Source: a virus
Taxonomy: Duplodnaviria > Caudoviricetes
Strand: one strand, 5' to 3'
Length of the DNA stretch: 57,581 nucleotides
IMG/VR virus record: IMGVR_UViG_3300013094_000056
Coordinates: 1 to 57,581 of that record
A program made the position numbers and the translations under genes. The notes beneath the pieces were generated by a model. It saw only the letters and a list, made by a program, of their open reading frames with translations, was not told where the DNA came from and ran no database searches. Below are positions 42,445-46,770 of this stretch, piece by piece; the stretch's first letter is position 1; every line of letters starts with the position of its first letter.

Positions 42445-42983
42445 ATATCCCCACGGGCATAAAGCTCAATTGAGCATTTTGTCAAGGCTTCCACGTCAGT
42501 CCGTGCACGGTGTGCACCGCTGAATGGTTCGCCGAAAAGCTCTTCATGAAGGGCAGTAAGGCTGAGCCGATAACCCTTCATGAATTCAGTTTCTTGAACG
42601 GTGCATATGCGTCTGATGGGCCACCGCAACGCGTCTTGAGTTCCGCAGCGTGACAGCTCAGCCATGATCACTGCATAGTCGTACGAAAGGTTGTGAGCGA
42701 TCACTGCCTCCGCACAATTGATGATGCTGCGAACACTTTCCTCAAAGTTTTTGAAAGGTGGTTGGTCTTTCAATTGCTGTGGCGTTATTCCTGTGATCTT
42801 GGTCGTGATGGGAGCGATCTCAAAACCGGGGTGGCAGAGGAATTCAAGCTCTTGAAGAGATTCCCCAGTCTTGAGATCGACAATGTGCCCAAAGAATTCG
42901 ATCACATGCGGCTGCTGGTCAAGGCCAACGACACTGTTCTTGACCAGATCTGTCGTTTCAGTGTCGAAAATCAGAGCCTTCAT
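42441..42983 (-). CDS. DEDDh 3'-5' exonuclease (epsilon/DnaQ-like)
   Basis: FDTETT, AHN..YD, HRA..D. Confidence 0.9.
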   Translation of the reverse strand: MKALIFDTETTDLVKNSVVGLDQQPHVIEFFGHIVDLKTGESLQELEFLCHPGFEIAPITTKITGITPQQLKDQPPFKNFEESVRSIINCAEAVIAHNLSYDYAVIMAELSRCGTQDALRWPIRRICTVQETEFMKGYRLSLTALHEELFGEPFSGAHRARTDVEALTKCSIELYARGDI

Positions 42984-43330
42984 CTTTTCACCTCAAGAGG
43001 CAATTCAGGCTGTTTTGAAATTTCGATGACAGAATCTTCAAAAGCAAGCATGGAGGCATAGACCATTGCATCTTTTATAGAGTCTTCATGACCGCCTTTT
43101 TCAAAATTCTGAGAATATCTGACAATTTTCCCAATCATCCACTCAAAAAGGTGAAAGCGCCGAAAATCTTCTTCAGACTCCAGATTGACGCCATTTGGGA
43201 AAATTGAATTCATAACTTTGCCGACGATGATGAATGCGTCGCCGTATTCTTTGTTTCTCTCGTCGTAAACCTTTGCGCCTGCCTGCATGAAAGTGGATGC
43301 ATTGAGGTCTGTGTCTGTTCTTTTAAACAT
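42980..43330 (-). CDS. All-alpha NTP-pyrophosphatase-like/nucleotide-modification-associated protein
   Basis: ER..EYG...K..R......HEDS..D..VY pattern. Confidence 0.6.
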   Translation of the reverse strand: MFKRTDTDLNASTFMQAGAKVYDERNKEYGDAFIIVGKVMNSIFPNGVNLESEEDFRRFHLFEWMIGKIVRYSQNFEKGGHEDSIKDAMVYASMLAFEDSVIEISKQPELPLEVKR

Positions 43331-44085
43331 CAGCGTTGACCTCCAATCAGATCAATTTGGCTTCCTGAAAGATATTTCTTGTTCGTTGACAAAAGTTCCG
43401 AAACGATATCTGAAATTTCGCCTTTCGTAAGAAAATCCCCCATTGGGCATTCTGCACCCCAATATGCTTCTGCACCTTCGCGGCTGAGACCTCGATAGCG
43501 GATCAGCCCTTGTATTGTTTCTTCCGACATTGGGGAATTCTGAACATTGCTTGGATTTATGCAGAAAATTTCAAAACCTTTCGGTGCAAGCTCATATGAA
43601 ATACAGCGAACAAAATGCTGCAGGCCTGCCTTTGCTGCACAATAAGGGGCAGATGCATTGAGGACTCTGCTGTGAGCCATCGATCCGATGAAAACAACCT
43701 TTGTCCGGAAAGAGGAATGCATCCTGGCCCTTGCGATTGCAGACATTGTCTTGATCGAGGCCGTCAAACTTTTCGTGATGACTTCATCAATCAAATCTTC
43801 AGTTTGATTTTCAATCCAGTCAAGGTGCGTCATGCCATTGTTGAATACGAAGCAATCGTATTGCTTTAGAAAATCTTCGTCCGAGCAAGGAAGATTGAGA
43901 GTTTTTTCTGTGAATGCATCAGAGAGATGATCAAGGCTTTGCAGCTTCTTGTGGATGCTTTCCCCAATATTTCCTTCCCTGCAGCCGAAAACTGCTGTTT
44001 TGAAATTGGGATTCCAAATTTTTGCCCTTCCAATTGTGAGTGCTTTCTCCCGATATTGGCTTGAGACTTCAGATTTCGTATTCAT
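43330..44085 (-). CDS. Short-chain dehydrogenase/reductase
   Basis: Rossmann AVFG...GNIG, NNG, IGS, catalytic YCAAK, INP; start 44085 with GGAG RBS. Confidence 0.85.
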   Translation of the reverse strand: MNTKSEVSSQYREKALTIGRAKIWNPNFKTAVFGCREGNIGESIHKKLQSLDHLSDAFTEKTLNLPCSDEDFLKQYDCFVFNNGMTHLDWIENQTEDLIDEVITKSLTASIKTMSAIARARMHSSFRTKVVFIGSMAHSRVLNASAPYCAAKAGLQHFVRCISYELAPKGFEIFCINPSNVQNSPMSEETIQGLIRYRGLSREGAEAYWGAECPMGDFLTKGEISDIVSELLSTNKKYLSGSQIDLIGGQR

Positions 44086-44287
44086 CACTGTTCTCCAGAA
44101 TTTTAACGCTCGTTGCATAAACGAGGTGCTCAGCAAGCGTTCTGTCTTCAGTCACCCAAAGCGCAAGGTGCTTGCCGTCACTCATCCTGCTGACAACACC
44201 ATTGAACGGGAGGCGACCAGGAAGCGAAACCTTGACACGCATCCCGACCCAACCAGTGCCATCGGCTAGCTTGCGCGGCTGCCTCAT
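44069..44287 (-). CDS. Small hypothetical beta-rich protein
   Basis: 72 aa from the TGATG-coupled ATG at 44287. Confidence 0.45.
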   Translation of the reverse strand: MRQPRKLADGTGWVGMRVKVSLPGRLPFNGVVSRMSDGKHLALWVTEDRTLAEHLVYATSVKILENSDEYEI

Positions 44288-44730: not shown

Positions 44731-45086
44731 TCGCCCTCCACTTTGTCGGCGCGTGCCTTTGCGTCGGCATCGGTGTAGCGGCCTTGCGGATAGCGCCGGG
44801 TCAGCTTTTCGATGTTCTTGAGCATGGTCACTTCACGGCTGATGAAGAGACCTTGGCGCAGGCCTTCAAGATAGAATTCGATATCGCCAAGCTCTTCGAT
44901 CACATTTTCGCGATCCATCGGCTTGCCGTAGATCGTTGCCTTCTTTATGGCATCGATCAGCTCTCCGACTTCACCGGCCAGACCGAGGCACATGTGAATG
45001 ATGTGTGCCGAGCGGTAATCCATGTTGCCAGAAATTTCATCTCCGGGCTTGACCAGAGCGGTCACCAGTTCTTCATGCGCTTTCAT
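44727..45086 (-). CDS. MazG-like nucleoside triphosphate pyrophosphohydrolase
   Basis: GLAGEVGEL.D..KK...EELGD..FY...N..KL..RY. Confidence 0.9.
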   Translation of the reverse strand: MKAHEELVTALVKPGDEISGNMDYRSAHIIHMCLGLAGEVGELIDAIKKATIYGKPMDRENVIEELGDIEFYLEGLRQGLFISREVTMLKNIEKLTRRYPQGRYTDADAKARADKVEGE

Positions 45087-45832
45087 GCGATGGTCCTCAT
45101 CTGATCGATCAGCTTGATGAGATCGATTTTTGAACTTTCAGGCATGCCATATTCCATGGCAAGGTGGATGATCGATTGCTCAAGCTCACCGGCTGCCCGG
45201 TCAAAGCTGCGTTCGAAAAAGAGCGATGCCCAAGGGTGCACCCGAAGCACTTCAGCCTTCATGGCGTCCATGACGTCACGATATTCGCCTTGGGTCCGCG
45301 TACTGGCTCGCTTGCGAGCGGTGTCGGCCATCGTGCGCAGGTCGAACTTTGCGACGATGTTGGTGAGGATGTTGGTCGGCAGGATGCCGCGTGCATCTTC
45401 AATCTTGGCACCATCCTCGATAAGTTGGCGATAGGTGCAGTCGATCAGAGTCATCGCATCGCTATACATTTCCCTTTTCAAGCCTTCAGAGACTGTCGGG
45501 CCGACGCCATAATCCCAGCCATCGACATCGAGCACGCGCATGGTCTGCTGAGCATACGAGCCGGTCCGAGTGCGCACGAACTGATGGGTGAAGGCGCGTG
45601 TCACACCATTGATCAGGAAGCTGTAGCTGATGAATTCCCAGCTTGAAGGTATGGTGTTGGCCATGTATTCGAGCTCTTTCATCAGGTCGTCTTCGCTCAT
45701 GGCCTGAACGTTCGCAAGCTGATTGGCGTCCATCTTCAGGCGCGTCTGCTTGGTGAACACGAGGCGTTCAGCCGCATAGCGTGCCGGGTCAGGCGATCCT
45801 GCGCCGGTGTAATCGATCAGTTCAACCTTCAC
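45083..45832 (-). CDS. thyX: Divergent flavin-dependent thymidylate synthase (ThyX-like)
   Basis: RAFTHQFVRTRTGSYAQQTMR (canonical RHRxxSxxxxSxR), EDARGILP, R....TQGEYR. Confidence 0.8.
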   Translation of the reverse strand: MKVELIDYTGAGSPDPARYAAERLVFTKQTRLKMDANQLANVQAMSEDDLMKELEYMANTIPSSWEFISYSFLINGVTRAFTHQFVRTRTGSYAQQTMRVLDVDGWDYGVGPTVSEGLKREMYSDAMTLIDCTYRQLIEDGAKIEDARGILPTNILTNIVAKFDLRTMADTARKRASTRTQGEYRDVMDAMKAEVLRVHPWASLFFERSFDRAAGELEQSIIHLAMEYGMPESSKIDLIKLIDQMRTIA

Positions 45833-46770
45833 TTGAGCCTCCCATCGTAATTCTCTCCAGAATTGATCATTTGCTGAATCTTGATGACGTCCCAGAACAC
45901 ATCATCAAGCAGCAGTCCCGGTTTCCATGTGGCGAACCGGCCAAGGCTGTAGACGCCGAAATTGTCGGTCGCCCACATCATGAATTTGCGTCGTTCACGC
46001 TCAGGAATTGGCGTGATCTTGGCATACTTTTGGGCCTTGAGCTCTGCTTCGTATTCCACCTTCTCCAGGCCGAAGTCATGGGTGACGAATTCCATCACCT
46101 GATCAATCGTCCACCTTTGATCCTGATCGAGGTATTTCTCTATCAGCTCGATCTGCAAAAGTGAATTGGTCAGCGTTGCACGGATGACCGGCGAGTCAGT
46201 CTCAGGATAATAGATGGTCGCGCATGCCTTGCTTTCCATCTTCATCTTCGCCTGGATCACCCATCCGTGACGATAACCGAAACAGGAACGATTGTCATAT
46301 TCGAGCAGGCTCATCAATGCCGGCATTGGCATGGTTGATACGACAGGCTCGCCTTTTTCTTTCGCCTCATCAAACCACGATCGGCCCTCGATCTTGACCC
46401 CATACTTGATTGGGTTCATCTGATGAAGCTCAAGCTGAGCAATGAAGTCAGAAGGTGCAATGAATCGACGGTCGACCTTGCCTTCTGCACTCATCGATGA
46501 GCGCAAGGCTGCCACACCGCTGCTCTTCATGGAGTAGCTGATGGCCTCTGCCACACGGTTGCGGAAGGGCCTGACGATCTTGACGACATCGACTGCCTGA
46601 AAAGGAATGTTGAGATGGTTTGAAATTCCATCTGATCGAAAACGCAGCAAGGCGTGATGATTGTTCGGCAGACTTGGCGCAGATTCGTAAATCTGCGCCT
46701 GCCCACGGAACATCGAGCCTGCCAAAAGACCGGCCATGCCAGCACCGATGATCCTGACGGTCATGGTCAA
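45829..46770 (-). CDS. FAD-dependent oxidoreductase (NAD_binding_8/UDP-galactopyranose-mutase-like architecture)
   Basis: IIGAGMAG dinucleotide fold, VVSTMP, C-terminal YSLGRFATW. Confidence 0.75.
   Translation of the reverse strand: MTMTVRIIGAGMAGLLAGSMFRGQAQIYESAPSLPNNHHALLRFRSDGISNHLNIPFQAVDVVKIVRPFRNRVAEAISYSMKSSGVAALRSSMSAEGKVDRRFIAPSDFIAQLELHQMNPIKYGVKIEGRSWFDEAKEKGEPVVSTMPMPALMSLLEYDNRSCFGYRHGWVIQAKMKMESKACATIYYPETDSPVIRATLTNSLLQIELIEKYLDQDQRWTIDQVMEFVTHDFGLEKVEYEAELKAQKYAKITPIPERERRKFMMWATDNFGVYSLGRFATWKPGLLLDDVFWDVIKIQQMINSGENYDGRLK

What the first reader, a model, noticed from the sequence alone, without database searches (positions are those of the whole stretch)
42980..46770. Candidate new DNA base-modification pathway: altered ThyX, FAD oxidoreductase, SDR, two NTP-PPases and a HAD phosphatase feeding a phage DnaE
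Seen: six enzyme genes (plus one small ORF) sit translationally coupled directly upstream of the phage's own exonuclease and DnaE. Established: phages that replace a base typically combine a thymidylate-synthase homolog with pyrophosphatases or phosphatases that remove the canonical dNTP, plus their own polymerase. SDRs and UGM-like flavoenzymes are not needed for ordinary dTMP synthesis. Inference: the cluster may make a non-canonical pyrimidine nucleotide, such as a C5-substituted or sugar-bearing uracil or cytosine. The SDR and flavoenzyme would supply the substituent, and the MazG-like proteins would purge the competing dNTP. No nucleotide kinase is evident in the window, which is a gap in this model.
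Basis: partly seen in the sequence, partly recalled or inferred. Interest (0 to 1): 0.9.

Follow-up and report, generated by a model that had tools for sequence, protein, structure and literature searches.

The report
Phage ThyX-flavoprotein nucleotide cassette beside DnaE
A freshwater phage carries, just upstream of its own DNA polymerase, an ancient gene cassette built around an unusual thymidylate-synthase-like enzyme and a partner flavoprotein that may make a sugar-decorated thymine for its DNA, although plain thymidylate synthesis is almost as likely.

Summary
The genes are real and tightly packed at 42980-46770 on the minus strand. Five of the six enzyme calls hold: a flavoprotein with a UDP-galactopyranose-mutase (UGM) fold, a ThyX-family protein, MazG, a HAD phosphatase and an SDR. 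The "second NTP-PPase" is a four-helix protein with no detectable MazG link.

The core order flavoprotein, ThyX, HAD, helical protein, DnaQ, DnaE recurs in 70 or more diverse viral loci and about 360 isolate genomes. These include Pbunavirus, whose DNA was shown in 2025 to carry sugar-type hypermodified thymidine with no genes assigned.

The ThyX clade lacks His53, His79 and Tyr91 of canonical ThyX. In the isolate collection its range nearly matches the flavoprotein's.

In related cassettes, the stretch between the flavoprotein and DnaQ genes also holds SDRs, a possible VOC-fold protein, methyltransferases, NodU-type carbamoyltransferases and Nmad5. These are tailoring enzymes that dTMP synthesis does not need.

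Against a modification role:
- This ThyX is the only thymidylate synthase in all five genomes checked.
- The Pbunavirus mark is TG-specific.
- The window has no kinase, glycosyltransferase or TET gene.
- No experiment links these genes to the mark.

Hypermodification role about 0.42; plain dTMP supply about 0.36. This scan found the same cassette earlier on other DNA (Wifcevirus, Pbunavirus).

The parts
47333..48142 (-). Pam3_Gp34-like protein, conserved first gene of the block
   Evidence: PF23977 E 1.5e-51. Found upstream of the flavoprotein gene in 70 of 83 loci. Function unknown; the Atlas gave only its own family.
46767..47333 (-). DUF7307 (Pam3 gp33-like) protein
   Evidence: PF23984 E 4.1e-25. 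Present in 74 of 83 loci.
45829..46770 (-). Rossmann (GxGxxG) flavoprotein-like enzyme with a UGM/protoporphyrinogen-oxidase-type fold, phrog_4828. The likely start is the ATG at 46764.
   Evidence: No Pfam or NCBIfam hit; phrog_4828 E 9.8e-51. AF2 pLDDT 90.2. VIA: Z 21.2, rmsd 3.7, 302 residues aligned to T. cruzi UGM 4dsg; protoporphyrinogen oxidase 18.3; bacterial UGM 16-17. 1528 homologs at E<=1e-5 among 2943 candidates, and none of the 120 listed carries a Pfam domain. The database form starts at residue 3.
45083..45832 (-). ThyX-family protein of a clade lacking His53, His59, His79, Asn85 and Tyr91 (T. maritima numbering)
   Evidence: Thy1 E 6.7e-29. TIGR02170 scores 85.8, below its cut-off of 87.9. 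Profile alignment to M. tuberculosis ThyX, E 1.2e-16.
44727..45086 (-). Canonical MazG-type NTP pyrophosphohydrolase, an accessory gene
   Evidence: PF03819 E 1.5e-7 and phrog_229 E 4.4e-35. 862 phage records, mostly cyanophages. At E<=0.01 it is found in 1 of 83 cassette loci (L078).
44287..44730 (-). HAD phosphatase of the PNKP-phosphatase type (core gene)
   Evidence: PF25109 E 1.5e-24. The DxDxT, T-G-R, K and D positions are conserved across 76 sequences. Present in 77 of 83 loci. Fused to the helical domain in Pbunavirus, Kyle and Hera and to an SDR in P0126.
44069..44317 (-). Small ORF (82 aa as listed; the real start is probably internal), function unknown
   Evidence: No family hit. 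Homologs sit at the same place in 5 of 83 loci.
43330..44136 (-). Classical short-chain dehydrogenase/reductase, an accessory gene. The probable start is the ATG at 44085.
   Evidence: adh_short E 7.3e-17. YxxxK and the catalytic Ser are visible in the sequence. 281 homologs at E<=1e-6 among 791 candidates. Only 20-25% identical to the SDRs of other cassettes, in the 4 loci of 14 compared where BLASTP matched.
42980..43330 (-). Conserved four-helix protein of unknown function (core gene); not an NTP-PPase by any test run
   Evidence: AF2 pLDDT 92.4, four helices. K68, R71, S84 and D87 are invariant in 40 sequences. It matches the C-terminal part of phrog_4889. Negative tests are. Present in 73 of 83 loci.
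42441..42983 (-). DnaQ-like 3'-5' exonuclease
   Evidence: RNase_T E 1.8e-14 and phrog_192 E 6.5e-31. Present in 70 of 83 loci.
39586..42444 (-). DnaE-type replicative polymerase (assignment not tested against a family library here)
   Evidence: A 952-aa ORF. Homologous ORFs are annotated DNA polymerase III alpha in phiKTN6, Kyle and Hera. Detected in 60 of 83 loci.
37388..39589 (-). Primase/helicase-like protein (DUF5906), end of the co-oriented block
   Evidence: PF19263 E 1.1e-22.

Best explanation
The region is one copy of an ancient phage cassette. Its core has four parts: a UGM-fold flavoprotein, a ThyX-family enzyme that keeps its dUMP-binding arginines but has lost the folate- and flavin-facing His53/His79/Tyr91 set, a HAD phosphatase, and a four-helix protein. 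I take this core to be the start of a thymidine-hypermodification pathway of the kind chemically detected in Pbunavirus DNA.

Inferred mechanism (not shown): the ThyX variant carries out flavin-dependent C5 substitution of dUMP in the nucleotide pool. It may still make some dTMP. The flavoprotein and the HAD phosphatase prepare or deliver a sugar or polyol moiety. Accessory enzymes in the slot between HAD and the helical protein tailor that moiety; here that is an SDR, and elsewhere SDR plus a possible VOC-fold protein, methyltransferases or carbamoyltransferases. The phage's own DnaE/DnaQ copies the DNA. The window's MazG is a generic add-on.

Shown: gene content, order, conservation, fold, the motif changes and the accessory repertoire. 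Inferred: substrate, product, and whether this phage's DNA is modified at all.
For: (1) Obligate pairing. Of 83 loci picked by the flavoprotein, 81 have the ThyX variant next to it, and the two misses (L009, L082) end at the flavoprotein gene. In isolates the flavoprotein matches 359 records and the ThyX matches 365 records at >=80% coverage, in the same genera.
(2) The pair persists, with the helical domain, in the 207-kb Rhizobium phage RHph_TM30, where no DnaE match was found. It is therefore not merely hitch-hiking on the DnaE module.
(3) Motif changes in 82 ThyX sequences. At the position of T. maritima His79: T 74, S 7, H 1. At Tyr91: V 66, no Y. At Ser88: T 37, S 32, A 13. R87, R89 and Q84 are 82 of 82 and R99 is 81 of 82. 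The His53 position is Ile. Papers call Tyr91 and Ser88 strictly conserved, report Y91A as more than 100-fold slower, and show His53 stacking on folate and flavin (PMC8316439 and PMC11940539, passages). TIGR02170 scores below its equivalog cut-off.
(4) Pbunavirus F8 and 14-1 carry the core cassette. Their DNA has 362- and 390-Da thymidine derivatives replacing about a quarter of T, with no genes assigned (PMC12191111, section 8 read in full). Wifcevirus relatives resist the restriction-modification (RM) systems tested without any known protection (PMC11990801, passage).
(5) Among 70 informative loci, genes lying between the flavoprotein and DnaQ genes include SDR in 25, a possible VOC-fold protein in 20, Methyltransf_11 in 6, an FkbM methyltransferase in 1, NodU/CmcH carbamoyltransferase in 4 and Nmad5 in 2. 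At least one of these is present in 33 of 70. Nmad5 is part of the M6-type thymidine modification cassette (PMC9476957, passage).
(6) A HAD-SDR fusion (P0126) exists in the window SDR's own family.
(7) The flavoprotein's nearest solved folds are UGMs, enzymes that act on sugar nucleotides.
Against: The ThyX variant is the only thymidylate-synthase-family gene in 5 of 5 genomes checked (window, RHph_TM30, F8, Kyle, Hera): PF00303 0 of 5, one PF02511 match each. In RHph_TM30 it lies about 3 kb upstream of dUTPase and ribonucleotide reductase genes, as an ordinary dTMP synthase would.

The Pbunavirus mark is confined to TG and to about 25% of T. A pool enzyme alone cannot explain that, and no DNA-binding or DNA-modifying domain was recognised in the cassette.

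The window has no TET/JBP, Tmk, dNK, GT1, GT2 or Nmad5 match, so activation of a modified dNMP and transfer onto DNA are unaccounted for.

Between F8 and 14-1, which bear different substituents, the flavoprotein is 97.3% and ThyX 93.8% identical. Only the HAD-helical fusion (80.8%) and several small ORFs (gp058, gp060, gp061, gp063: 78-83%) stand out in the cassette.

The window's four nearest relatives by flavoprotein lack the SDR and MazG.

HNH endonucleases also land in the same slot (9 loci), so some insertions are plainly unrelated. There is no chemical data for this uncultured phage; public runs hold it only as contigs.
Confidence: 0.42

Rival explanations
1. Ordinary nucleotide supply. 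The divergent ThyX still makes dTMP for a phage that replicates with its own DnaE. The flavoprotein serves it as a reductase or one-carbon helper. MazG and HAD sanitise or rebalance the dNTP pool. The DNA is unmodified, or is modified by unrelated genes.
For: Strong Thy1 match (E 6.7e-29) with the dUMP-binding Arg and Gln retained. It is the sole thymidylate synthase in 5 of 5 genomes. It lies about 3 kb upstream of dUTPase and RNR in RHph_TM30 and sits among replication genes in all loci. About 75% of T in Pbunavirus DNA is plain T. T. maritima ThyX can use formaldehyde directly (PMC8316439, abstract and passages), so a folate-site-remodelled ThyX could still methylate dUMP. A later check of earlier notes from this scan priced the modification reading at 33/100.
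Against: Canonical ThyX needs no partner flavoprotein. Here pairing holds in 81 of 81 loci that extend past the flavoprotein gene. Tyr91 and His53, reported as critical for methylene transfer, are replaced across the clade. The score falls below the equivalog cut-off. Carbamoyltransferases, methyltransferases, SDR plus a possible VOC-fold protein, and Nmad5 inside the cassette have no role in dTMP synthesis.
Confidence: 0.36
2. The cassette makes a small molecule that does not end up in DNA. This could be a modified nucleotide or sugar nucleotide used for host takeover or counter-defence.
For: The enzymes are of small-molecule type: a UGM-fold flavoprotein, HAD, SDR, methyltransferases and carbamoyltransferases. 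There is no recognisable DNA transferase or kinase.
Against: The position directly upstream of DnaQ/DnaE is constant in the 70 loci that reach DnaQ, and a ThyX-family enzyme with a dUMP-type pocket is always present. Both point to DNA precursors. No precedent was found in the papers searched.
Confidence: 0.08
3. There is no common pathway. The core genes are independent replication helpers inherited together (for example HAD as a DNA 3'-phosphatase for end repair), and the accessory genes are random insertions.
For: The HAD matches the PNKP phosphatase family. HNH endonucleases insert in the same interval. The window is a mosaic: its flavoprotein is nearest L005-L008 (58-62%), while its ThyX matches the L041/L050 group slightly better (71-72% against 66-69% for L006-L008) and that group's flavoprotein is only 41-42% identical.
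Against: Gene fusions tie the parts together: HAD with the helical domain and HAD with SDR. The trio is retained in a phage where no DnaE match was found. SDR is repeatedly present at the same slot, needing at least 8 gains or losses on the tree.
Confidence: 0.08

Closest known systems
Pbunavirus (F8, 14-1) TG-context thymidine hypermodification (Yee et al. 2025 preprint, PMC12191111)
   Same: F8 and 14-1 have the same core order: flavoprotein, His-less ThyX, HAD plus helical domain, DnaQ, DnaE. The window's proteins are 28-41% identical to those of the Pbunavirus phiKTN6.
   Different: In Pbunavirus the HAD and helical domains are fused, five small ORFs lie between the flavoprotein and ThyX genes, and there is no SDR or MazG in the cassette (F8 has a MazG-like gene elsewhere). 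The chemistry is known there only as masses, and no gene is assigned. For the window's phage no DNA chemistry exists.
M6 / ViI / PhiW-14-type thymidine hypermodification (5-hmdU made by a ThyA-family hydroxymethylase, then 5-HMUDK kinase and amino-acid:DNA transferase; PMC8989533 passages, PMC5889632 listing only)
   Same: A thymidylate-synthase-superfamily enzyme plus tailoring enzymes lies upstream of the phage polymerase. Nmad5, a member of that cassette (PMC9476957), occurs in 2 of 70 related loci here.
   Different: The window has no ThyA-family gene and no Tmk/dNK-type kinase, TET or Nmad5. The enzyme is ThyX-family and is paired with a UGM-fold flavoprotein. The specific 5-HMUDK and aGPT-Pplase families were not searched.
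Canonical flavin-dependent thymidylate synthase ThyX (T. maritima, M. tuberculosis)
   Same: Same fold family (Thy1 E 6.7e-29; profile E 1.2e-16 to 3gwc). The arginines and glutamine that bind dUMP are kept.
   Different: RHR becomes RTR. The His53, His59, Asn85 and Tyr91 positions are Ile, Phe, Ala and Val. The score is below the TIGR02170 cut-off. It always has a partner flavoprotein.
UDP-galactopyranose mutase
   Same: Best structural match over nearly the whole model (Z 21.2, 302 of 313 residues, rmsd 3.7). It has an N-terminal GxGxxG.
   Different: No sequence-level match. Identity is 17%. The protein is about 55-200 residues shorter than the matched UGM chains. Protoporphyrinogen oxidases score only 3 Z units lower. 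Active-site residues were not compared.
Bacillus phage SP-15 (5-dihydroxypentyluracil; two Thy1-family genes; PMC5977210 passages)
   Same: A phage with a polyol-type C5 substituent on uracil encodes ThyX-family proteins. Its authors guessed, without testing, that one of them is a hydroxymethyluridylate synthase.
   Different: That genome is an unrelated 222-kb orphan. No sequence comparison was made here, and no flavoprotein partner was reported in the passages read.
RB69 / DLP3 5-hydroxy-dCMP synthase (ThyA homolog using a flavin; PMC13326640 passages)
   Same: A precedent that thymidylate-synthase relatives in phages switch cofactor and chemistry to start a glycosylated-base pathway.
   Different: It is ThyA-family, acts on cytosine, and is accompanied by glycosyltransferases and kinases that are absent here.

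Membership tests
ThyX (flavin-dependent thymidylate synthase, Pfam Thy1 / TIGR02170) | Match to the Thy1 family profile above its cut-off | tested here: met
   PF02511 E 6.7e-29, 101.5 bits against a cut-off of 24.8. Single match in the genome.
ThyX (flavin-dependent thymidylate synthase, Pfam Thy1 / TIGR02170) | Equivalog-level score (TIGR02170 cut-off 87.9 bits) | tested here: not met
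   85.8 bits.
ThyX (flavin-dependent thymidylate synthase, Pfam Thy1 / TIGR02170) | ThyX motif RHRxxSxxxxSxRY, with His79, Ser88 and Tyr91, plus His53 (the motif wording is recalled; residue roles come from PMC8316439 and PMC11940539) | tested here: not met
   The window reads R-T-R-T-G-S-Y-A-Q-Q-T-M-R-V. Across 82 clade sequences the His79 position is T 74, S 7, H 1, and the Tyr91 position is V 66 with no Y. The His53 position is Ile.
ThyX (flavin-dependent thymidylate synthase, Pfam Thy1 / TIGR02170) | dUMP-binding arginines and glutamine | tested here: met
   R87, R89 and Q84 are 82 of 82 and R99 is 81 of 82. R148 and R175 are invariant in A3. Alignment to solved ThyX.
ThyX (flavin-dependent thymidylate synthase, Pfam Thy1 / TIGR02170) | Converts dUMP to dTMP | not testable with these tools
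   Needs thyA complementation or an enzyme assay.
UDP-galactopyranose mutase | Overall fold | tested here: met
   VIA Z 21.2, rmsd 3.7, 302 residues aligned (4dsg). The next family, protoporphyrinogen oxidase, scores 18.3. Foldseek E 5e-10.
UDP-galactopyranose mutase | Sequence-family membership (GLF / NAD_binding_8 profiles) | tested here: not met
   No Pfam family at E<=10. No PDB sequence hit at E<=1. The profile search gives only Rossmann-motif matches at E 0.4-2.5.
UDP-galactopyranose mutase | UDP-sugar-binding Arg/Tyr residues and the flavin-adjacent His loop | not tested
MazG-type all-alpha NTP pyrophosphohydrolase (119-aa protein) | Profile match and acidic metal-binding motifs | tested here: met
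   PF03819 E 1.5e-7 and phrog_229 E 4.4e-35. ExxE and ExxD strings are visible in the translation.
MazG-type all-alpha NTP pyrophosphohydrolase (116-aa protein) | Profile or fold similarity to MazG | tested here: inconclusive
   No Pfam MazG hit. hhalign against the window's MazG gives probability 0.2%. No MazG appears among the Foldseek or VIA rows. The conserved residues are K68, R71, S84 and D87, not an ExxE pair. A very distant relation cannot be excluded.
HAD phosphatase, PNKP-phosphatase type | Profile match and the DxDxT nucleophile motif | tested here: met
   PF25109 E 1.5e-24. D8, D10, T12, T61-G-R, K100 and D124 are conserved in 76 sequences.
Classical SDR | Profile match, the Ser / Tyr-x-x-x-Lys catalytic set and a glycine-rich dinucleotide motif | tested here: met
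   adh_short E 7.3e-17, matching only from residue 91. YCAAK and an upstream Ser are present. The N-terminal motif is the variant G-x-x-x-G-x-x-G.
Known thymidine hypermodification systems (ThyA-type dUMP hydroxymethylase or TET/JBP T-dioxygenase, plus kinase and transferase) | ThyA-family hydroxymethylase or TET/JBP dioxygenase present | tested here: not met
   PF00303 gives 0 matches in the window and PF12851 gives 0.
Known thymidine hypermodification systems (ThyA-type dUMP hydroxymethylase or TET/JBP T-dioxygenase, plus kinase and transferase) | Nucleotide or nucleobase kinase, glycosyltransferase | tested here: not met
   PF02223, PF01712, PF00535 and PF00534 all give 0 in the window, with positive controls ringing. 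The 5-HMUDK and aGPT-Pplase families were not searched by accession.
Pbunavirus-type replication/nucleotide cassette | Order: flavoprotein (phrog_4828), His-less ThyX, HAD, helical domain, DnaQ, DnaE | tested here: met
   Window order. The same order is seen in phiKTN6, Kyle, Hera, F8 and 14-1 and in the IMG/VR loci.

The most novel reading that the evidence does not exclude
The His-less ThyX and its UGM-fold partner may carry out a flavin-iminium-mediated C5 alkylation of dUMP with an aldose instead of a folate methylene. This would combine ThyX chemistry (reduced-flavin N5 carbinolamine or iminium transferring carbon to C5 of dUMP; PMC8316439) with the covalent flavin-sugar adduct captured in a solved A. 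fumigatus UGM structure (title of PDB entry 5hhf). The product would be a carbon-linked polyhydroxyalkyl-dU.

By my own arithmetic, dU + pentose + 2H - H2O is C14H22N2O9, or 362.3 Da, and dU + hexose - H2O is C15H22N2O10, or 390.3 Da. These are the same formulas as the 362 and 390 Da nucleosides reported for F8 and 14-1, and they recall SP-15's dihydroxypentyluracil.

HAD would free the aldose from a sugar phosphate. SDR, the possible VOC-fold protein, methyltransferases and carbamoyltransferases would tailor the chain. TG specificity would still need a separate explanation.
Probability: 0.1. Interest if true: 0.92.

Novelty: new variant of a known kind. Interest (0 to 1): 0.62.

Why it matters
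Pbunavirus phages are among the most used therapeutic Pseudomonas phages. In 2025 they were found to carry a hypermodified thymidine whose genes are unknown, and a defence nuclease family (END) targets such DNA.

If this cassette is the pathway, it would:
- assign genes to that mark;
- reveal a ThyX-family enzyme and a UGM-fold flavoprotein doing chemistry on DNA precursors that is not in print in the library searched;
- predict that a very large, environmentally widespread phage clade has non-canonical DNA. The flavoprotein has 1528 homologs and about 360 isolates carry it, from freshwater, soil and clinical sources. That would have consequences for sequencing, restriction, CRISPR and phage engineering.

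If the cassette only makes dTMP, the obligate ThyX-flavoprotein pair without His53 and Tyr91 is still an undescribed mechanistic variant of thymidylate synthesis.

Tried and rejected
- **Near-identical DNA search in phages.** No match.
- **Sequence searches of the flavoprotein against solved structures.** Nothing beyond the Rossmann motif.
- **Fused forms of the flavoprotein.** None at E<=1e-8 among proteins of 546-2000 residues. The tool itself calls this weak evidence.
- **The 116-aa protein as MazG.** Rejected as unsupported. Foldseek gave no hit at E<=0.001, and the best VIA Z was 8.0 over 58 residues, which is helical background.
- **ThyX with flavoprotein complex prediction.** No verdict (score 0.00). 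This is neither for nor against binding.
- **Promoter and terminator scan of 36500-49500.** Counts were at shuffle level: 8 against 6.6 promoter-like sites and 13 against 14.2 terminator-like sites. No operon boundaries are claimed.
- **Public runs.** 14 freshwater or pond runs hold the stretch or a part of it, all as contigs. No read-level signal of modification could be sought, and read laying was not used.
- **F8 versus 14-1 comparison to find a specificity gene.** The most divergent protein in 38-58 kb is gp070 (56.9%), but the difference is a swapped coiled-coil middle with no enzyme domain. Only 23 ORFs of that 20-kb stretch were compared, not the whole genomes.
- **Restriction-site test.** Six-base palindromes containing TG are less avoided than those without TG. 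Observed/expected values are 0.88 against 0.69 in the window (Mann-Whitney p 0.026), 0.95 against 0.74 in F8 (p 0.13), and 0.84 against 0.71 in the pooled 80 IMG/VR loci (p 0.002). Lambda also shows 0.72 against 0.62, and T7 shows 0.60 against 0.58. With only two negative controls this is suggestive at most, and I do not count it as evidence.
- **Nmad5 search in five genomes.** None found, but the control rang nowhere, so this is uninformative.
- **DnaE search in RHph_TM30.** No match, without a positive control in that record.
- **Atlas search of the gp34-like protein.** It returned only its own family.
- **Supplements of papers.** Not opened. Extended Data of PMC12191111 (fragmentation spectra, enzyme tables) could bear on whether the substituent is O- or C-linked.
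- **Print check.** Searches for an assignment of genes to the Pbunavirus mark found only the END preprint.

Full report
**What is there.** The window is a complete-looking 57,581-bp IMG/VR virus record (CheckV 100%). It comes from freshwater: 14 lake or pond runs hold the stretch or a part of it, all as contigs.

On the minus strand a co-oriented, tightly packed block runs as follows:
- 48142-47333: Pam3_Gp34-like protein
- 47333-46767: DUF7307 protein
- 46770-45829: 313-aa Rossmann protein
- 45832-45083: ThyX-family protein
- 45086-44727: MazG
- 44730-44287: HAD_PNKP phosphatase
- 44317-44069: small ORF
- 44136-43330: SDR
- 43330-42980: 116-aa protein
- 42983-42441: DnaQ-like exonuclease
- 42444-39586: DnaE
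- 39589-37388: DUF5906 primase/helicase

Adjacent ORFs overlap by 4 nt at five junctions. Promoter-like and terminator-like sites are at shuffle level, so I claim no operon limits.

**The individual proteins.** The 313-aa protein has no Pfam or NCBIfam family, even at E<=10. It belongs to phrog_4828, of unknown function (E 9.8e-51). It has 1528 homologs at E<=1e-5 among 2943 candidates, and none of the 120 listed is named or domain-annotated.
- Its AlphaFold model (40-sequence alignment, pLDDT 90.2) is closest to eukaryotic UDP-galactopyranose mutases: VIA Z 21.2, rmsd 3.7, 302 residues aligned for 4dsg, and about 20.8 for the A. fumigatus enzyme.
- Protoporphyrinogen oxidases follow at 18.3 and bacterial UGMs at 16-17. 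Foldseek agrees.
- The Atlas lists bacterial 'LPS biosynthesis' amine-oxidase-type proteins among its structural neighbours.
- Fold is not function, and the active-site residues were not compared.

The 116-aa protein is a confident four-helix bundle (pLDDT 92.4) with invariant K68, R71, S84 and D87. No test links it to MazG.

The true MazG is a generic phage gene. It is found in 862 records, led by cyanophages.

The HAD keeps its catalytic motifs. The SDR keeps Ser and YxxxK.

**The ThyX is altered, and so is its whole clade.** Alignment to T. maritima and M. tuberculosis ThyX (profile E 1.2e-16) maps the window's residues onto the canonical motif.
- In 82 clade sequences the His79 position is T 74, S 7, H 1.
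- The Tyr91 position is V 66, I 5, S 4, T 3, A 3, L 1, with no Tyr.
- The Ser88 position is T 37, S 32, A 13.
- The Asn85 position is Ala in 78.
- The dUMP-side residues are kept: R87, R89 and Q84 are 82 of 82 and R99 is 81 of 82.
- The His53 and His59 positions are Ile and Phe.
- TIGR02170 scores 85.8 against a cut-off of 87.9.

In passages I read, Tyr91 and Ser88 are called strictly conserved. [quoted passage not shown] His53 stacks on folate and on reduced flavin and hydrogen-bonds Tyr91 and Asn85 (PMC8316439 and PMC11940539). The side of the pocket that handles the carbon donor has been rebuilt, while the nucleotide side is kept.

**Conservation.** I fetched 80 IMG/VR loci by the flavoprotein (208 of 278 pattern matches encode a relative, best 80 kept) and added phiKTN6, Kyle and Hera.

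Iterated profile searches over all ORFs gave these counts out of 83 loci:

| Gene | Loci |
|---|---|
| Flavoprotein | 83 |
| ThyX | 81 (the two misses are contigs that end at the flavoprotein gene) |
| HAD | 77 |
| Helical protein | 73 |
| DnaQ | 70 |
| DnaE | 60 |
| gp33-like | 74 |
| gp34-like | 70 |
| SDR | 29 |
| Small ORF | 5 |
| MazG matching the window's (E<=0.01) | 1 |

The lower counts are partly truncation. These loci were chosen by the flavoprotein, so they show what accompanies it, not the reverse.

For the reverse, tblastn of the ThyX in the isolate collection gives 365 records at >=80% coverage, against 359 for the flavoprotein. The genus tallies are nearly the same: Pseudomonas 292 against 290, Escherichia 27 against 27, Rhizobium 10 against 8, Serratia 9 against 8, Xanthomonas 6 against 6. 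The remaining ThyX hits (Gordonia, Bacillus, Clostridium) lie below 31% identity.

**Not only a passenger of the DnaE module.** Rhizobium phage RHph_TM30 (207 kb, Kleczkowskaviridae) gave no DnaE match (no positive control). It keeps the flavoprotein, a His-less ThyX (R-N-R) and the helical domain fused to a depositor-annotated hydrolase, all within 7 kb. A dUTPase gene and ribonucleotide reductase genes follow immediately downstream of that hydrolase gene. My HAD profile did not hit that hydrolase at E<=0.01.

Gene fusions tie the parts together. HAD is fused to the helical domain in phiKTN6, F8, 14-1, Kyle and Hera. HAD is fused to an SDR in P0126, which is 55% identical to the window's SDR.

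**Outside evidence.** A 2025 preprint (PMC12191111; section 8 read in full) reports on F8 DNA:
- It is cut by EcoRI, HindIII, XbaI, DraI and BsaI.
- It is not cut by five enzymes whose sites contain TG.
- F8 and 14-1 nucleoside digests contain new thymidine derivatives of 362 and 390 Da, replacing about a quarter of T.
- The authors read these as a tetrose sugar alcohol and a cyclic aldopentose derivative.
- They state that Pbunavirus lacks known modification genes.

F8 and 14-1 carry the core cassette. [quoted passage not shown] My literature searches found no paper assigning genes to the mark.

**New comparative evidence.** In the 70 loci that contain both the flavoprotein and DnaQ genes (66 distinct flavoprotein sequences), the genes between them include:
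- SDR in 25 loci.
- A 150-180-aa protein in 20 loci, in most of them right after the SDR. Hera's depositors call it glyoxalase/dioxygenase, but Pfam Glyoxalase_4 reaches only E 0.04-0.14.
- Methyltransf_11 in 6 loci (E 7.7e-9 for the representative).
- An FkbM-type methyltransferase in 1 locus (E 4.5e-14).
- NodU/CmcH carbamoyltransferase in 4 loci (E 7e-43 and 8e-37).
- Nmad5 in 2 loci (E 2.9e-20 and 1.2e-20). One is L006, among the window's nearest relatives.
- HNH endonucleases in 9 loci.

Thirty-three of 70 loci hold at least one of the listed tailoring-type genes (SDR, the possible VOC-fold protein, the methyltransferases, carbamoyltransferase or Nmad5). Only cluster representatives were scanned against Pfam, and 69 further small ORFs stayed unassigned. 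Nmad5 belongs to the M6-type thymidine modification cassette (PMC9476957, passage). Such enzymes decorate hydroxylated small molecules and have no place in dTMP synthesis.

On a quick flavoprotein tree (SH-aLRT only; the careful search did not finish), SDR presence needs 8-12 gains or losses.

The window is a mosaic. Its flavoprotein is closest to L005-L008 (58-62%), which lack SDR and MazG. Its ThyX is slightly closer to the L041/L050 group (71-72%, against 66-69% for L006-L008). Its SDR is only 20-25% identical to other cassette SDRs, in the 4 loci of 14 compared where BLASTP matched. That SDR nevertheless has its own family of 281 homologs, on contigs of up to about 96 kb, many of them 40-68 kb.

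**Evidence against a modification role.**
- The His-less ThyX is the only thymidylate-synthase-family gene in the window, RHph_TM30, F8, Kyle and Hera: PF00303 0 of 5, PF02511 one each. This fits a working dTMP synthase.
- TG-specific, partial replacement requires a DNA-level step. The window has no TET/JBP, Tmk, dNK, GT1, GT2 or Nmad5.
- F8 and 14-1 differ in substituent, yet their flavoproteins are 97.3% and their ThyX 93.8% identical. The HAD-helical fusion (80.8%) and several small ORFs (78-83%) diverge more than their neighbours, DnaE at 96.4% and DnaQ at 97.8%.
- A palindrome-avoidance test was suggestive but had only two negative controls, so I set it aside.

I put 0.42 on the cassette being part of a Pbunavirus-type thymidine hypermodification pathway, with the SDR as a tailoring enzyme and MazG as an unrelated add-on. 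I put 0.36 on plain dTMP supply by a mechanistically divergent ThyX-flavoprotein pair. The remainder goes to a non-DNA product or to no common pathway.

**Earlier notes of this scan.** They reached the same reading on Wifcevirus and Pbunavirus DNA, and a later check priced it at 33/100. That check objected that the cassette is shared by descent with the replication module. The RHph_TM30 case, the fusions and the tailoring-enzyme repertoire bear on that objection. Its TG-specificity objection remains unanswered.

Noticed in passing
window 30519-33287 (-): A 922-aa protein with collagen triple-helix repeats (PF01391 E 9.5e-25) lies between the terminase and portal genes. It is probably a fibre or decoration protein.
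   Followed up: no
window 50558-51037 (+): A 159-aa ORF with a weak, below-cut-off match to pyrimidine-dimer DNA glycosylase (Pyr_excise E 0.001, 19.9 bits against a cut-off of 23). A DNA glycosylase-like gene in a phage suspected of base modification may deserve a look.
   Followed up: no
window 52230-53189 (+) and 54055-55689 (+): A DUF932 protein (E 3.1e-34) and an SNF2-type helicase lie on the opposite strand to the replication block.
   Followed up: no
window 42980-46770 compared with L005-L008 and L041/L050: Mosaic cassette. The flavoprotein is nearest L005-L008 (58-62%), while ThyX is slightly nearer L041/L050 (71-72%, against 66-69% for L006-L008), whose flavoproteins are only 41-42% identical. 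This implies recombination inside the cassette.
   Followed up: partly
L085 (Rhizobium phage RHph_TM30) 8947-15809: A 207-kb phage with no DnaE match keeps the flavoprotein, a His-less ThyX and the helical domain fused to a hydrolase. A Seg-like homing endonuclease is annotated directly after the flavoprotein gene. A dUTPase gene and RNR genes follow immediately downstream of the hydrolase gene.
   Followed up: partly
L087 15894-17090 (F8 gp070) and L088 15997-17301 (14-1): This is the most divergent protein between F8 and 14-1 in the 38-58 kb region (56.9% identity). The ends are conserved, with CxxC motifs, and the middle is a swapped coiled-coil. No enzyme domain was found.
   Followed up: partly
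L047 10103-11797, and also L022, L048, L074: Full-length NodU/CmcH-type carbamoyltransferases sit between the HAD and helical-protein genes of four cassettes. They hint at a carbamoylated substituent in those phages.
   Followed up: partly
L006 8901-9494 and L059 8924-9589: Nmad5 (PF18757) genes lie inside two cassettes. One is in a close relative of the window's phage.
   Followed up: partly
L089 37163-37717 (F8 gp049): F8 has a depositor-annotated MazG-like pyrophosphatase next to its DNA ligase gene, outside the cassette. It was not compared with the window's MazG.
   Followed up: no
window, whole: The TA dinucleotide is strongly depleted (rho 0.37) and TG is enriched (rho 1.26). The cause was not examined.
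   Followed up: no
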